Translations under genes and position numbers: made by a program | From: a virus | Direction: 5' to 3' (one strand) | UHGV virus genome: UHGV-1557986 | Length of the DNA stretch: 30,395 nucleotides | Notes under the pieces: model-generated | Databases searched by the model: none | The model's input: only the letters and a program-made list of their open reading frames with translations | Told to the model about the DNA's origin: nothing | Shown here: piece by piece, positions 736 through 4,284 of the stretch | How positions within the stretch are numbered: the first letter of the stretch is position 1 | Layout of the letters: each line of letters begins with the position of its first letter

Positions 736-1437
736 TTATTCTGATACTTGCTCAAAAAACGAGCTGGTAAGGGGAATCCAATCCTCTGACACTTCGCGAG
801 GTCGCGGTTTGCCGTGGAAAAAGATTATTCGGCAGTCTTTTGGTAATGCCCCATTCCCCCTGGAGTAACGCGCGCTCGCATATTTCGAACCAGGTTCCAC
901 AACATCGGCCTTGTAACTTACAAACCATCCCGGATACAGATCCTGAAATGCTGGTGTATCATCACCCATAACCTTCCGCAAAAACCCCTGATCACCCCAG
1001 CATTCAGTAGTAACACAACGAGCAATCCAACCTTCCGGATCTTGCCAGAATGCACTCCAGATATGCGCTTTTACACTATTTGGTATCCACAGGGCACCGC
1101 TGCCACGATATTGTGGATGGTAAAAATCCCTAAGCATGGTGAAGTTGGTTGGTGGATTCTCTAGGATTGGGCGTATATCACCGGCAATAACCGTGTCCAA
1201 ATCCAGATAGAACAGATCATCGGTTATATCCGGTCGGAACAACTCGATTTTCGCCCACCAGCCACGGCACTTTTGCCACTGGTTGATCAATGGGATAACT
1301 TTGACGCCAGGTACATGTAAACACTTCAGGTCTGTCAGGCAAATAATTTCATAGTCTTTTGGCAGTTGATTAACCAGCCACTGCACATCGGAAGCGTTAT
1401 AGTCACCACCAGAGCGAAGAACTAAAGCAATCTTCAT
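736..1437 (-). CDS. putative nucleotide-sugar glycosyltransferase-like protein (DxD motif FYLDLDTV), 233 aa
   Basis: ORF track; DLD motif after a hydrophobic strand; 4-nt overlap with the phosphatase gene stop. Function assignment weak. Confidence 0.4.
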
Positions 1438-2126
1438 GCTGCACCATCACCTTTCACTTTCTTCAATGTCAGGTTTCCGCAAAATACGGCACCTGTGTCG
1501 ATATAATGCTGATTCCAGAATGTCTTCGGGCTTTTCACCGGAGTGTGACCAAAGATAAAACGATCTGCGCCCGAAATTTCGCCACCAATATCATCCATCG
1601 AATCACTGATACGCTCGCGCGCCCAGACAACGTTGAAAAGCGGCACCTCCTTACCGAATTGATATTCATTATCCGGATAGTCGGCATGGGCTATAACGAT
1701 AGTTTCTTGCCCGGTGTTCAACTCAATGATATAGGGCAGTCGTCTTACCAACTCCACCAGCGCCCTGGCTAATATTTCCTGATCAGCGTCCAGCATGAAG
1801 AACCATTGACCGCCATTCATTAGCCAGTTATTCACGTTGCCATCAGGACTTAACGCATCGAGCATCAACAGCTCATGGTTCCCCACTACTGCCCTGAACC
1901 AGGGCATCTGCAATAGTTCCAGAGATTCGACATTTTCAGTACCGCGATCGATAAGGTCGCCGACCGATATCAGTAAATCCTGCGCCGGGTCAAAATCCAC
2001 ACGATGGAGTTCGGACATCAGTCTGGTGTAGCAACCATGCAGATCACCAACAACCCAGACATTCCTGTATTTGGTACCGTCGATACGGTGATAAATTGTG
2101 GGTGCCATCATGTATTCTTCAGCCAT
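1434..2126 (-). CDS. ppp: Ser/Thr protein phosphatase, lambda-PPase / PrpA-PrpB family (P1 Ppp-like)
   Basis: Metallophosphatase motifs GDLHG, GDLIDRG, GNHE, and near-colinear similarity to lambda phosphatase along the whole length ([19 protein letters not shown] ... [14 protein letters not shown]). Confidence 0.85.
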
Positions 2127-2734
2127 TCTTTAAGAGTCATCTGCGGAATACCTCCCATTTTCCCGCATGAAACAACGTCAATCTGTTCACGCGCAGACTG
2201 GAATAACAAAGGCAGGTGACTTAGATTTTTTGGCGTGCCGCCGGAGTGAACGCGTAGTTCTTGCGTAGCGTCAACGCCCACCAGGGCTACATGTTTGAAT
2301 CCGATATGGAAAGCCAGGTTCAGAGCACCATATGCACTATTGCCGCTGGCAATTTCATTCTCATCTTCGCAAAGGCCGAAATGTGCGGACCAGCGCCACG
2401 CCCACCACTCGGGAGAATTCGTATTTTTTGGCTCTGTGCCGCGTTCAGCCACACGACGGAAGCACAGAACGCCATCTCTGACTTCACGTTCTTTAACATC
2501 GGGTAGTGCCATGCAATAACAAACACCACGGCGACGGCGGCCACGACCAACGCGCCGCATATTGTCTGGGGATGGATCAAGGGTGAAAAAATAAGAAGCG
2601 CGGTTAAGCCAGTCGATAGCCCCATTGACCGCTATAATCGGCACTCCGCGCGGCGCAACAAAGTTTGCGGCGCTTGGGCCACTGCCGACGATAATAACGC
2701 GATCACTGCCTCTAAATTTATTCTTGGGAAACAT
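2108..2734 (-). CDS. CstII/Maf/DUF115-like nucleotide(-sugar)-binding fold protein, paralogue B, 208 aa
   Basis: Motifs [46 protein letters not shown]; paralogous to the adjacent upstream ORF. Confidence 0.5.
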
Positions 2735-3294
2735 TGAATTGCACTGCTCCTACTTGCATTCAAAATATGTAAATCTGCGTGTTTTTTGCGGGTATCCAGG
2801 AACTGCTGTTGCCATTTTGAAATAGACACCTGCGTTGGATTCCGTAGGGCTTGAGGGTGCGCGCCATGCCAATGAAGGCCGTTTTGCAGAGAACAGTCAT
2901 AGCCGACTAATACCACTACTTCAGCCCCTGATTCAGCAGCCAGACTGATAGCCTGCGCGCCGCTATTTACCCCTTCCGCCGGTCCACAATATCGCCTGTA
3001 CTCCAACGAAAATGATTTCGCCGCCGCCAGGTTGGCTGTCACTTTGCGGAACCTCCCTCCCGGTATGGTGGAACCGTATTGCTTCCACCATGACAAATCA
3101 CCGGCGTATAAGGCATAAATGTCATCGAACATCAGCCAGGAATTGTTAACCGCAATGATTGAACAGCCAGTTTTTTCTATAGCAGCACAGTCCTCACGAG
3201 TGAGTGACGGACCGCTACCGACACAAAAAACAGTCCTAGTCGCCCTGGGTGGTATGTTCATTCTCAGCTGCAAATTCAGCCTCCAGGCGAGCAT
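2632..3294 (-). CDS. CstII/Maf/DUF115-like nucleotide(-sugar)-binding fold protein, paralogue A, 220 aa (true start possibly at 3261, MNIPP)
   Basis: Motifs FCVGSGPSL, IIAVNNS, GVNSGAQAISLAAESGAEVVVLVGYD, HWHG; overlaps neighbours in the operon. Confidence 0.5.
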   Translation of the reverse strand: MLAWRLNLQLRMNIPPRATRTVFCVGSGPSLTREDCAAIEKTGCSIIAVNNSWLMFDDIYALYAGDLSWWKQYGSTIPGGRFRKVTANLAAAKSFSLEYRRYCGPAEGVNSGAQAISLAAESGAEVVVLVGYDCSLQNGLHWHGAHPQALRNPTQVSISKWQQQFLDTRKKHADLHILNASRSSAIQCFPRINLEAVIALLSSAVAQAPQTLLRRAECRL

Positions 3295-3433
3295 TCATTT
3301 CAGCGATTACCGGGTCCACTACAGCATCTGCTTCCTGTTCATTACGCGGCATGATCGATGCCAGCGATTCATAATTAACCTTGAATGACACGATTATTCT
3401 CCCGATGTTAATGTGCGCTATATCAAAGAGCAC
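3236..3433 (-). CDS. hypothetical small acidic protein, 65 aa
   Basis: ORF track; first small gene after the VRR-NUC gene in the same operon; no motif recognised. Confidence 0.3.
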   Translation of the reverse strand: MLFDIAHINIGRIIVSFKVNYESLASIMPRNEQEADAVVDPVIAEMNARLEAEFAAENEHTTQGD

Positions 3434-3457
3434 ATGTGCACTAATTAATTTATTATT

Positions 3458-4036
3458 TTAAGTGGAATACAACCACTTGTCGCCGTTCAATACATGCTCA
3501 ATAGCCTCACCCTTTTTAAGGCTTATGTATTCCAGGATGGCGGTTATCGCTTGTTCTGCACCATACGCAAGAACGACGTAGTAACCTTCCTCTCTAAGCC
3601 TGCGCATCCAGGCGATCTGCTCTTTCGTCGGGGCTTTACCATTTGGTTCTTTAAGCTCAATTCGCATGCCGTGATAAATACCGCATGCTTTATCGAGACT
3701 CATGTCCGGATAACCTTTTTTCTGCCCTTCAGCCTTCATTTTCCCGGCGGTTGCTTTTGAACGTTTCCCTCCGTTAGGCGTTGCATGCAACAGCTCATAG
3801 ATGTCAGGGTGCTTGCGTTCGAAGTAATCAAAAATGAAAACCTGCTCGAAGTGCTCGCAATTTCCGTCGCGCAGGTCTGGGTTCTTTGCCAGTGCTGCAA
3901 GTGCCTTCGCATGTGGAGAAACTTCTTTTACCGGCGCAAGCGATAAGAATGGATCCTTTTTGGTTTTTGGCCTGGACCGCCCCTTATTTCGACGCTCACT
4001 AAAAGCCTGAAACTCTTCCTCAGTAAAGCGCAACAT
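3458..4036 (-). CDS. VRR-NUC domain nuclease, 192 aa
   Basis: C-terminal pattern GYPDMSL ... HGMRIELKEPNGKAPTKEQIAWMRRLREEGYYVVLAYGAEQA matches the VRR-NUC (PD-(D/E)xK-like) signature as remembered. Confidence 0.55.
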   Translation of the reverse strand: MLRFTEEEFQAFSERRNKGRSRPKTKKDPFLSLAPVKEVSPHAKALAALAKNPDLRDGNCEHFEQVFIFDYFERKHPDIYELLHATPNGGKRSKATAGKMKAEGQKKGYPDMSLDKACGIYHGMRIELKEPNGKAPTKEQIAWMRRLREEGYYVVLAYGAEQAITAILEYISLKKGEAIEHVLNGDKWLYST

Positions 4037-4038
4037 AA

Positions 4039-4284
4039 TCAGTCAAATCCTGCCGGTCGCATGCCATATTTACGCTGTTTTGCAGCCTGCTCTTCCCTGT
4101 GCCATTGCGCACACTCAGCGTCACAATAGATGCCTGATTCAATCGGTTCATTGCAGTAACGACACTTCCCTGTAAATACCTGACTCACGACCTGTGCCTG
4201 CTTTCTGATGTTATCGATGGCCATGTCTTTGAGAGCTTCTAACTGATTCATGCTCAGCTCTGCATCATCAACACGCTCTGCCAA
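4039..4284 (-). CDS. small zinc-ribbon protein (TraR/DksA-like C4 finger, CRYC-x9-C-x3-C), 81 aa
   Basis: Four-Cys cluster CRYCNEPIESGIYCDAEC at the C-terminus, coiled N-terminus; first gene of the leftward operon. Confidence 0.45.
   Translation of the reverse strand: MAERVDDAELSMNQLEALKDMAIDNIRKQAQVVSQVFTGKCRYCNEPIESGIYCDAECAQWHREEQAAKQRKYGMRPAGFD

What the first reader, a model, noticed from the sequence alone, without database searches (positions are those of the whole stretch)
736..4284. Leftward seven-gene accessory operon with three glycosyltransferase-like proteins, a lambda-type phosphatase, a VRR-NUC nuclease and a zinc-ribbon protein
All seven genes are tightly packed or overlapping on the minus strand and transcribed divergently from the morphogenesis operon. 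The combination of a nuclease with several nucleotide-sugar-binding-fold proteins and a phosphatase, under the same promoter region that carries a C1-like operator, is not a standard phage module. It could be host-envelope modification, a DNA or virion glycosylation pathway, or an anti-defence cassette. It may also simply correspond to the poorly characterised pmg/ppp region of P1.
Basis: partly seen in the sequence, partly recalled or inferred. Interest (0 to 1): 0.5.

Follow-up and report, generated by a model that had tools for sequence, protein, structure and literature searches.

The report
P1 pmgL–pmgQ block with glycosylation cassette
The seven leftward genes are the known but uncharacterised pmgL–pmgQ/ppp region of a P1-type phage-plasmid, and three of them (pmgO, pmgP, pmgQ) form a sugar-transferase cassette that recurs beside capsid genes in many unrelated phages, which suggests that it glycosylates virion proteins.

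Summary
Window 736-4284 (-) holds seven packed or overlapping genes, 98.4% identical in DNA to phage P1 pmgL, pmgM, pmgN, pmgO, pmgP, ppp and pmgQ. Published in-frame deletions of each plaque normally, so the block is known, dispensable in the laboratory and of unknown function.

The domain calls hold:
- Ppp is a lambda phosphatase orthologue.
- PmgM is a VRR-NUC nuclease.
- PmgL is a four-cysteine zinc ribbon.
- PmgQ is a distant GT8-like glycosyltransferase.
- PmgO and PmgP are paralogues with the Maf/GT42/MptE fold.

It is not one pathway under one promoter. A C1 operator and promoter sit between pmgM and pmgN. Only pmgO/pmgP/pmgQ travel together outside P1:
- O and P are fused into one protein in a podovirus.
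- MptE-like plus PmgQ-like pairs, often with sugar-type methyltransferases, lie in late gene modules of HK97-, Mu- and T7-like phages and after the lysis genes of a podovirus with a P22-type portal, most often between the capsid and connector genes.
- ppp occupies a variable slot between P and Q.

My best reading (about 0.4) is cytoplasmic glycosylation of virion proteins from host nucleotide sugars, possibly CMP-Kdo. Modification of LPS or of host proteins is not excluded. No biochemical evidence exists yet.

The parts
4039..4284 (-). pmgL: 81-aa zinc-ribbon protein (C41-X2-C44-X9-C54-X3-C58). It is the first gene of the leftward unit.
   Evidence: ORF. One residue differs from P1 PmgL. PHROG 54 'DksA-like zinc-finger' E 1.7e-13. 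No Pfam, NCBIfam or PDB match.
3458..4036 (-). pmgM: 192-aa VRR-NUC (PD-(D/E)xK) nuclease. It is probably a branched-DNA or Holliday-junction nuclease.
   Evidence: PDB 4qbl 'VRR-NUC' E 3.5e-17 over residues 77-180. Pfam VRR_NUC 21.2 bits, just below the 23.8 cut-off. PHROG 5702 'Holliday junction resolvase' E 5e-27. The motif YPD...RIELK is present.
3435..3490 (-). Internal control region. It holds the C1 operator Op83/Oppp (3435-3451) and the predicted sigma-70 promoter PpmgN (-35 GCGACA, -10 TAAAAT, about 3455-3490), overlapping the 3' end of pmgM.
   Evidence: P1 annotation transferred with an offset of 1384 nt. The promoter-like site was found independently. The operator sequence is invariant in the window, P1 and P7.
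3236..3391 (-). pmgN: small acidic protein (51 aa from GTG 3391 with a GGGAG Shine-Dalgarno sequence; the mechanical ORF extends to 3433). Function unknown; found only in P1-like elements.
   Evidence: Substitutions between the window, P1 and P7 pile up at 3400-3433, consistent with non-coding sequence there. PHROG 2350. Homologues were found only in P1-like loci.
2632..3294 (-). pmgO: MptE-like/Maf-like/GT42-like nucleotide-sugar transferase-fold protein. Motifs are SGPSL, AVN, D66, NSG, GYDCS and HWHGxH.
2108..2734 (-). pmgP: paralogue of pmgO with the same fold. It overlaps pmgO by 103 nt in the -1 frame. Motifs are SGPSA, AVNGA, FTLD, NSAYGA and GVDA.
1434..2126 (-). ppp: lambda-type Mn-dependent Ser/Thr protein phosphatase (motifs GDLHG, GDLIDRG, GNHE). 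It sits in the variable slot between pmgP and pmgQ.
   Evidence: PDB 1g5b E 9.6e-92. Pfam Metallophos E 8e-15. The slot holds FkbM methyltransferases or another glycosyltransferase in other phages. ppp is found alone in D6.
736..1437 (-). pmgQ: distant GT8-like (glycogenin/AgtA-like) GT-A glycosyltransferase. It has a DxD motif (D79, D81), a GDQG motif (D149, Q150) and a conserved FHGxPRP.
   Evidence: The family profile hits Skp1 alpha-galactosyltransferase 6mw5 at E 6.8e-9 and glycogenin-1 at E 6e-6. PHROG 1962 'glycosyltransferase' E 7e-126. Only 9 of 58 members touch Pfam Glyco_transf_8, and weakly.
4285..4430 (.). Divergent control region between pmgL and gene 26. It holds C1 operator Op82/O26 (4342-4358), the predicted sigma-70 promoters P1pmgL and P2pmgL, and the divergent late promoters LPpmgL and LP26.
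   Evidence: P1 annotation. 98% identical in the window, P1 and P7. The operator matches the consensus with 2 mismatches.
669..734 (.). Downstream boundary. C1 operators Op86b (669-685, +) and Op86a (718-734, -) and promoter PpmgR precede pmgR and pmgS.

Best explanation
The block is the pmgL-pmgQ segment of a P1-type phage-plasmid. It is a mosaic of three independent parts.

(1) pmgL-pmgM encode a zinc ribbon and a VRR-NUC branched-DNA nuclease. They are read from C1-repressed and late promoters.

(2) pmgN-pmgO-pmgP...pmgQ are read in addition from an internal C1-repressed promoter. PmgO and PmgP are paralogous Maf/GT42-fold transferases that work as a pair. PmgQ is a GT8-like retaining hexosyltransferase. 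Together they form a glycan-building cassette.

(3) ppp is a lambda-type phosphatase dropped into the variable slot between pmgP and pmgQ.

Proposed mechanism, which is inferred and not shown: during lytic growth the three soluble enzymes use host nucleotide sugars to put a short O-linked glycan on one or more virion proteins before or during assembly. Mycobacteriophage cassettes do this to capsid and tail-tube proteins. For PmgO/PmgP the donor would be a CMP-activated ulosonic acid; in E. coli K-12 the only such donor is CMP-Kdo. For PmgQ the donor would be a UDP-hexose. The glycan is dispensable for plaque formation in the laboratory. It would matter for particle stability, adsorption behaviour or recognition outside the laboratory.
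For: Identity of the block: 98.4% to P1, gene for gene.

Folds:
- The PmgQ profile matches GT8 structures (E 7e-9), with invariant DxD and GDQG motifs.
- The spacing of the conserved Ser and Asp (NSG/NSA...22 residues...D) equals that of the Ser and Asp needed for Maf activity.

Functional linkage of O, P and Q:
- The single protein P0164 is a PmgO-like half plus a PmgP-like half, and it is followed directly by a PmgQ-like gene.
- 47 of 86 non-P1 loci carrying a PmgQ-like gene (85) or only a PmgO-like gene (L009) have an MptE-like gene on the same strand nearby.
- The O-P overlap in the -1 frame is conserved in distant phages.
- Fusions of PmgO-like domains to a TylF-type sugar O-methyltransferase exist.

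Context:
- The cassette lies between the major capsid gene and the head-tail connector gene in HK97-like prophages of Halomonadaceae, Rhodocyclales and Rhizobiales (L084, L094-L100, L103, L110, L118, L132, L160).
- In a T7-like podovirus it lies between the capsid and tail tubular genes (L093).
- In a Mu-like myovirus it lies between Mu-F and the capsid gene (L091).
- In a podovirus with a P22-type portal it follows the lysis genes (L008).
- It overlaps its structural neighbours, and its GC content is within 3% of theirs.
- FkbM and Methyltransf_24 methyltransferases flank it in 13 and 10 loci. This is the same enzyme mix as the cluster O mycobacteriophage cassette that modifies capsid and tail tube (PMC11600133).

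Donor and timing:
- Maf enzymes can transfer Kdo from CMP-Kdo in E. coli (bioRxiv 10.1101/2020.06.03.131540).
- In P1 three C1 operators shut the block off in the lysogen, and a late promoter is annotated upstream.
- All single deletions plaque normally (PMC9024508).
Against: - No glycan has been reported on P1 virions, and none of the seven proteins was detected in the virion proteome. That is expected for enzymes, but it gives no positive support.
- The P1 proteins score below Pfam's MptE-like threshold, and PmgQ is not a Pfam GT8 member.
- In P1 the cassette is not next to the capsid gene, and it also has an early-type C1-controlled sigma-70 promoter.
- PmgQ-family genes also occur outside phages: beside Wzy_C-type ligase genes, and as a chromosomal orphan in Pantoea. 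That fits envelope glycan targets.
- About half of the PmgQ-like loci could not be assigned any context.
Confidence: 0.4

Rival explanations
1. Envelope modification during lytic growth. PmgO/P/Q would add Kdo or hexose residues to the LPS core, which is P1's own receptor, or to another surface glycan. This would mask receptors, so that superinfecting phage or released progeny are not lost on infected cells and debris.
For: - GT8 is the family of LPS-core alpha-hexosyltransferases (established knowledge).
- P0164 carries a faint precomputed hit to WaaZ_KDO_III.
- Some PmgQ-family genes sit next to Wzy_C O-antigen-ligase-like genes.
- Nearly all hosts are Gram-negative.
- P1 adsorbs to the LPS core (own knowledge).
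Against: - The cassette sits inside head gene modules, overlaps structural genes and has no compositional signature of a moron.
- It is present in a T7-like podovirus and in a 248-kb phage, types that are usually strictly lytic.
- In P1 it is repressed in the lysogen, so it is not lysogenic conversion.
- The WaaZ hint could not be reproduced with the Pfam copy at hand.
Confidence: 0.2
2. Host-protein glycosylation for takeover or anti-defence. The transferases would modify a host protein such as a defence or translation factor, as GT-A toxins and effectors do.
For: - The closest solved relatives act on proteins or protein-linked glycans: Maf, glycogenin and AgtA.
- The genes are non-essential on laboratory strains that lack most defence systems.
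Against: - Takeover genes are normally early and not embedded between capsid and connector genes.
- Frequent partnering with sugar O-methyltransferases points to building an elaborated glycan.
- Knock-outs show normal EcoA/B/K restriction.
Confidence: 0.12
3. PmgO/PmgP are pyrophosphokinases of the MptE/thiamine-pyrophosphokinase type, not transferases. The cassette would then make or modify a small molecule or nucleotide.
Against: - The best match for both is Maf.
- The N-terminal G-x-G-P-S motif and the overall alignment length (160-165 residues) favour the Maf/GT42 branch.
- They are constantly partnered with a GT8-like transferase, other glycosyltransferases and sugar-type methyltransferases.
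- No pterin or thiamine pathway genes lie nearby.
Confidence: 0.1
4. DNA glycosylation, or a single seven-gene nuclease/transferase/phosphatase anti-restriction pathway.
For: A nuclease lies next to the transferases. Phage DNA glucosylation is a known anti-restriction strategy (established knowledge).
Against: - pmgM, pmgL, pmgN and ppp never accompany O/P/Q outside P1-like elements.
- Known DNA glucosyltransferases are GT-B enzymes acting on hydroxymethylated bases, and P1 has no hydroxymethylase (own knowledge).
- Knock-outs have normal type I restriction phenotypes.
- The late, head-module context does not fit.
Confidence: 0.05

Closest known systems
Phage P1 genes pmgL, pmgM, pmgN, pmgO, pmgP, ppp, pmgQ (P7: upf81.0, upf81.2, hdmA, hdmB, hdmC, ppp, hdmD)
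   Same: Same genes, order, overlaps and operators. DNA is 98.4% identical, with 1-8 amino-acid differences per protein.
   Different: This copy lies in a 454-kb E. coli plasmid record and has an ISSen4 insertion in the neighbouring pmgS. Nothing differs in the block itself.
Mycobacteriophage virion glycosylation cassettes (clusters O, F, C2; Freeman et al. 2023, cited through PMC11600133)
   Same: Tandem glycosyltransferase genes plus an O-methyltransferase in a phage genome. In mycobacteriophages these enzymes modify capsid and tail-tube proteins. The PmgO/Q-type cassettes in other phages show the same enzyme mix, within structural modules.
   Different: The enzyme families differ (Maf/MptE-like plus GT8-like). 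The hosts are Gram-negative. No glycan has been demonstrated. P1's copy carries a phosphatase instead of a methyltransferase.
Maf flagellin nonulosonic-acid O-glycosyltransferases (PDB 5mu5) and GT42 sialyltransferases (Cst-I/II)
   Different: PmgO and PmgP are about 200 aa, core domain only. They lack the flanking Maf domains. Identity is 13-18%, and they fall below the Pfam threshold.
Glycogenin / Skp1 alpha-galactosyltransferase AgtA (GT8)
   Same: Profile-level homology (E 7e-9 and 6e-6), with DxD and (G)DQG motifs.
   Different: Not recognised by Pfam Glyco_transf_8. PmgQ is shorter (233 aa). The position of the C-terminal metal-binding His is uncertain in the alignment.
Lambda protein phosphatase (NinI, PDB 1g5b) and stand-alone phage VRR-NUC nucleases (PDB 4qbl)
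   Same: Ppp matches along its full length (E 1e-91). PmgM matches the VRR-NUC core (E 3.5e-17).
   Different: PmgM has an extra basic N-terminal region of about 75 residues. The biological role of either protein in P1 is unknown.

Membership tests
Phage P1 pmgL-pmgQ region (Punavirus) | Near-identical DNA and the same gene order, flanked by gene 26 and pmgR/pmgS, with C1 operators Op82, Op83 and Op86 | tested here: met
GT8 (glycogenin-like retaining GT-A) for PmgQ | Significant sequence similarity to GT8 members | tested here: met
   The family profile against PDB gives AgtA 6mw5 at E 6.8e-9 and glycogenin-1 at E 6e-6
GT8 (glycogenin-like retaining GT-A) for PmgQ | Match to the curated Pfam Glyco_transf_8 model | tested here: not met
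   P1 PmgQ has no hit. 9 of 58 family members hit weakly, best E 0.005
GT8 (glycogenin-like retaining GT-A) for PmgQ | DxD metal/nucleotide-sugar motif and the DQG active-site motif | tested here: met
   D79, D81 and D149 are invariant and Q150 nearly so. They align with the glycogenin and AgtA motifs
GT8 (glycogenin-like retaining GT-A) for PmgQ | C-terminal His that completes the Mn2+ site | tested here: inconclusive
   H208 is nearly invariant, but it aligns two positions away from the GT8 His in the HMM alignment
MptE-like / Maf / GT42 fold for PmgO and PmgP | Fold similarity to Maf, MptE and Cst-I | tested here: met
MptE-like / Maf / GT42 fold for PmgO and PmgP | Pfam PF01973 at the gathering threshold | tested here: not met
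   22.6 and 20.9 bits against a cut-off of 34.6. All 33 and 53 family members hit, but weakly
Maf flagellin glycosyltransferases proper | Multi-domain protein of about 600 aa with flanking domains, encoded in a flagellar glycosylation locus | tested here: not met
   PmgO is 220 aa and PmgP 208 aa, core domain only, and they sit in a phage context
Maf flagellin glycosyltransferases proper | Catalytic acidic residues (E324 and D415 in 5mu5) and the conserved Ser | tested here: inconclusive
   Candidates are PmgO D66/S111/D133 and PmgP D53/S133/D155, which are invariant and have the Maf-like Ser-to-Asp spacing. No residue-level structural superposition was available
Glycosyltransferase activity with a CMP-ulosonic acid donor | Transfer of Kdo or a nonulosonic acid from the CMP-sugar | not testable with these tools
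   This needs enzyme assays
Phage virion glycosylation system | Glycan on capsid or tail proteins that depends on the phage transferases | not testable with these tools
   Only the context is available: a location in head modules in at least 20 loci
Lambda-type PPP phosphatase for Ppp | Full-length similarity and the GDxHG / GDxxDRG / GNHE motifs | tested here: met
   1g5b E 9.6e-92. The motifs GDLHG, GDLIDRG and GNHE are in the sequence
VRR-NUC nuclease for PmgM | Similarity to a solved VRR-NUC and the PD-(D/E)xK motif | tested here: met
   4qbl E 3.5e-17. YPD...ELK is present. Pfam is just under its cut-off
DksA/TraR C4 zinc finger for PmgL | Pfam zf-dskA_traR match and CX2C-X17-CX2C spacing | tested here: not met
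   There is no Pfam or NCBIfam hit, and the spacing is CX2C-X9-CX3C. Only PHROG 54 carries that name

The most novel reading that the evidence does not exclude
Phage P1 and a large, unnoticed set of phages of Gram-negative bacteria decorate their virions with a Kdo-containing, sometimes methylated, O-linked glycan. The glycan would be built by a Maf-like heterodimer (PmgO/PmgP) plus a GT8-like enzyme (PmgQ). This would be a second, mechanistically distinct virion glycosylation system, and a new natural use of CMP-Kdo outside LPS and capsules.
Probability: 0.25. Interest if true: 0.75.

Novelty: new variant of a known kind. Interest (0 to 1): 0.45.

Why it matters
P1 is a standard laboratory phage, and P1-like phage-plasmids spread resistance genes, yet this block has had no function for twenty years.

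If the cassette glycosylates virions, phage glycosylation would extend from mycobacteriophages to phages of Proteobacteria and beyond. It would explain why the genes are dispensable on plates. It would bear on immune recognition and stability of therapeutic phages. It would also supply small soluble enzymes for protein glyco-engineering in E. coli.

The idea is directly testable with the deletion library that already exists. If it is wrong, the result is still useful: the seven genes are a mosaic of unrelated modules, not a pathway.

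Tried and rejected
- Single-sequence searches of PmgO, PmgP and PmgQ against PDB gave nothing significant. Profiles worked only for PmgQ.
- NCBIfam gave nothing except for Ppp.
- An alignment meant to model the O-P fusion P0164 stacked both families on its C-terminal half. It showed paralogy but could not be used to model the fusion.
- Programmed -1 frameshifting that would join PmgO to PmgP was considered. 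An in-frame A_AAT_TTA heptamer lies at about 2713-2719 (-). I rejected this as the main reading because the heptamer is absent from distant O-P pairs with the same overlap.
- The faint WaaZ_KDO_III hint could not be reproduced.
- AFDB fold libraries were unavailable. The viral fold library gave only unnamed MptE-like proteins.
- The C-terminal domain of the PmgO fusions P0289 and P0403 looked GT9-like by eye but matched nothing in PDB.
- The Lobocka 2004 P1 genome paper and Freeman 2023 were not held.
- Cassette GC content does not differ from its flanks.
- PmgL against PDB gave only chance matches.

Full report
**1. What is there**

The window between 736 and 4284 carries seven minus-strand ORFs:

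| Gene | Coordinates | Length |
|---|---|---|
| pmgL | 4039-4284 | 81 aa |
| pmgM | 3458-4036 | 192 aa |
| pmgN | 3236-3433 | 65 aa (51 aa from GTG 3391) |
| pmgO | 2632-3294 | 220 aa |
| pmgP | 2108-2734 | 208 aa |
| ppp | 1434-2126 | 230 aa |
| pmgQ | 736-1437 | 233 aa |

Megablast against phage records gives 98.4% identity over 117-6000 to phage P1, and 97.5% to P7. The P1 record names the genes as above. P7 names them upf81.0, upf81.2, hdmA, hdmB, hdmC, ppp and hdmD. The proteins differ from P1 by 1-8 residues. The window is 100% identical to part of a 454-kb E. coli plasmid record, NZ_CP034659.1.

**2. Transcription**

The divergent region 4285-4430 is 98% identical to P1 and P7. It carries C1 operator Op82/O26 at 4342-4358. 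In the P1 annotation it also carries two sigma-70 promoters and a late promoter for pmgL, back to back with the late promoter of gene 26.

A second operator (Op83/Oppp, 3435-3451) and a promoter lie in and just after the end of pmgM. The consensus scan found that promoter independently, with GCGACA-17-TAAAAT at 3483-3455. Two further operators at 669-685 and 718-734 separate pmgQ from pmgR. No convincing terminator lies inside the block.

The seven genes are therefore co-directional and probably co-transcribed late. They are also split into pmgL-M and pmgN-Q units, and all are repressed by C1 in the lysogen.

Sequence differences between the window, P1 and P7 cluster at 3400-3433. The Shine-Dalgarno sequence plus GTG at 3391 is conserved. 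This favours the 51-aa form of PmgN.

**3. What is published**

Gonzales et al. made in-frame deletions of pmgL, M, N, O, P, ppp and Q. All plaque normally and show normal restriction on EcoA, EcoB and EcoK hosts, and none of the proteins was found in the virion proteome (PMC9024508).

A genome-wide CRISPRi screen scored all of them non-essential except pmgN, with an EOP of 1.4e-2. That contradicts the deletion result (PMC10695390).

A full-text search for the gene names found no functional study.

**4. The individual proteins**

- **Ppp** matches lambda phosphatase 1g5b along its whole length (E 1e-91).
- **PmgM** matches a solved stand-alone VRR-NUC protein (4qbl, E 3.5e-17) and keeps the PD...ExK motif. 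From my own knowledge, such stand-alone VRR-NUC proteins are junction-resolving nucleases.
- **PmgL** has four cysteines spaced CX2C-X9-CX3C and belongs to PHROG 54. It does not match the DksA/TraR Pfam model or its spacing.
- **PmgQ** has no Pfam match. However, a profile of 58 homologues hits the GT8 enzymes AgtA (E 6.8e-9) and glycogenin (E 6e-6). The DxD (D79, D81) and GDQG (D149, Q150) motifs are conserved. Only 9 of 58 members touch Pfam Glyco_transf_8, and weakly. It is GT8-like rather than a curated GT8 member.

The glycosyltransferase-like label is therefore supported at fold level. The fold alone cannot separate a transferase from a pyrophosphokinase.

**5. Which genes belong together**

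Distant PmgQ homologues (30-45% identity) were traced to their contigs. In an Onishia prophage the order is capsid, small gene, PmgO-like, PmgQ-like, head-tail connector, with overlapping stop and start codons. A Martelella prophage has capsid, PmgO-like, one gene, PmgQ-like, Methyltransf_24, head-completion protein.

In a podovirus with a P22-type portal, one 376-aa protein (P0164) consists of a PmgO-like half (37% identity) and a PmgP-like half (49%). They are in the P1 gene order, and a PmgQ-like gene follows at once. A 248-kb phage carries O, P, another nucleotide-sugar transferase and Q in a row.

A scan of one genome per species gave 71 more loci from Gamma-, Beta- and Alphaproteobacteria, Planctomycetota, Verrucomicrobiota and others. 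Of these, 31 showed an O- or P-like gene beside Q with the first profiles. After iterating the profile, 47 of 86 non-P1 loci did. These include a T7-like podovirus (capsid, MptE-like, FkbM methyltransferase, Q, tail tubular genes) and a Mu-like myovirus.

Clustering the neighbours and naming the clusters with Pfam gave two recurrent layouts:
- TerL, portal, ClpP protease, HK97 capsid, (small gene), O/P, Q, gp6-like connector.
- Capsid, portal, collagen-repeat protein, connector, O/P, Q, Methyltransf_24.

FkbM methyltransferases sit directly upstream of Q in 13 loci, and Methyltransf_24 sits downstream in 10. The slot between P and Q holds a methyltransferase (L131, L160), another transferase (L010, L143) or, in P1-like elements only, ppp.

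Homologues of pmgL, pmgM, pmgN and ppp were found in no non-P1 locus tested. The P1 relative D6 has ppp in a lambdoid nin-like setting without O/P/Q.

Cassette GC content equals that of its flanks within 3% in nine loci. The PmgO family is large, with 7,473 representatives at E <= 1e-3 in the 1.84-billion-protein library. It includes fusions to a TylF-type sugar O-methyltransferase and to Ig-like domains.

**6. Interpretation**

The block is a mosaic, and the conserved functional unit is pmgO-pmgP-pmgQ. Four observations point to a glycan-building cassette that acts late, in the cytoplasm, most probably on virion proteins:
- its enzyme relatives are a protein O-glycosyltransferase of the Maf type and glycogenin/AgtA-type enzymes;
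- its partners are sugar methyltransferases and further transferases;
- it is coupled to capsid and connector genes in several unrelated phage lineages;
- it is repressed in the P1 lysogen.

The precedent is the glycosyltransferase plus O-methyltransferase cassettes that modify capsid and tail tube in cluster O mycobacteriophages (PMC11600133).

None of the cassettes whose neighbours carried Pfam annotation includes nucleotide-sugar synthesis genes, so host pools must be used. Maf enzymes have been shown to transfer Kdo from CMP-Kdo in E. coli. CMP-Kdo is the only CMP-ulosonic acid in K-12 (own knowledge). A Kdo donor for PmgO/PmgP is thus a reasoned guess and is not shown.

A glycan of this kind would be invisible in plaque assays, which fits the knock-out data.

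**7. Caveats and rivals**

- No glycan is known on P1.
- The fold also fits pyrophosphokinases.
- PmgQ relatives occur beside Wzy_C-type ligase genes and as a chromosomal orphan.
- GT8 enzymes build LPS cores, and the LPS core is P1's receptor.

Envelope modification during lytic growth therefore stays a serious rival (0.2), followed by host-protein modification (0.12) and a non-transferase chemistry (0.1). DNA glycosylation, or a unified nuclease-transferase-phosphatase pathway, is unlikely (0.05).

**8. Verdict**

The finding is real and correctly located, and its domain calls are right. As an object it is already known and annotated in P1.

What is new here is twofold. The seven genes are not one pathway. 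Three of them form a widespread phage cassette that sits in late gene modules, most often beside head genes, and so gives a specific, cheap-to-test hypothesis for a classic phage.

I rate interest at 0.45. If the hypothesis holds, the system would be a new variant of a known kind, namely phage virion glycosylation.

Noticed in passing
window 1-116 and 114-434: The first 116 bases are the end of an IS3-family element (ISSen4). It interrupts pmgS, leaving only the first 106 codons of the 420-codon P1 gene. The whole window is 100% identical to a 454-kb E. coli plasmid record (NZ_CP034659.1), so this P1-like segment sits in a much larger replicon.
   Followed up: partly
window 2632-2734 (-): pmgO and pmgP overlap by 103 nt with pmgP in the -1 frame. 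At the DNA level the conserved end of PmgO abuts the conserved start of PmgP, and a distant phage encodes the two as one fused protein. An in-frame slippery-type heptamer A_AAT_TTA lies at about 2713-2719. It is not conserved in distant O-P pairs, so programmed frameshifting is unlikely but has not been tested.
   Followed up: partly
window 3391-3433 (-): The start of pmgN is ambiguous. P7 annotates the 65-codon form and P1 the 51-codon form. Substitutions between the window, P1 and P7 concentrate in the extra 14 codons, which favours the GTG at 3391. CRISPRi against pmgN reduces plating 70-fold although its deletion is harmless (PMC10695390 against PMC9024508). This is unexplained.
   Followed up: partly
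window 14403-14430 and 18713-18729: Further C1 operator matches lie outside the finding: an overlapping bivalent pair (0 and 2 mismatches) at 14403-14430 and a single site (1 mismatch) at 18713-18729.
   Followed up: no
L086, L089, L103, L110, L118, L132 (about 1.6 kb upstream of the PmgQ-like gene); also L117, farther upstream: A collagen triple-helix repeat protein is encoded between the portal and connector genes, next to the O/P-Q cassette, in several prophages (among them Nitratireductor, Rhizobium and Rhodobacter) and two uncultivated viral contigs. Collagen-like proteins are often glycosylated, so this protein is a candidate substrate in those phages.
   Followed up: no
P0303, P0392, P0289, P0403 (representative library hits): PmgO-like domains occur fused to other domains: Ig-like Big_1/Big_13 domains (556 aa), a TylF/Methyltransf_24 sugar O-methyltransferase (374 aa), and an unassigned C-terminal domain of about 290 aa that matched nothing in PDB.
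   Followed up: partly
L116, L125, L126, L138; L165/L166: PmgQ-family genes also occur outside phages. In Erwinia, Rosenbergiella and Martelella contigs they sit directly upstream of a Wzy_C (O-antigen ligase-like) membrane protein gene. In Pantoea floridensis there is a lone copy between lpdA and acnB.
   Followed up: partly
L003 (phage D6) 5964-6656: The P1 relative D6 shares only ppp with this block (89% DNA identity). It places ppp among lambdoid nin-region-type small genes, which shows that ppp moves independently of the pmg genes.
   Followed up: yes
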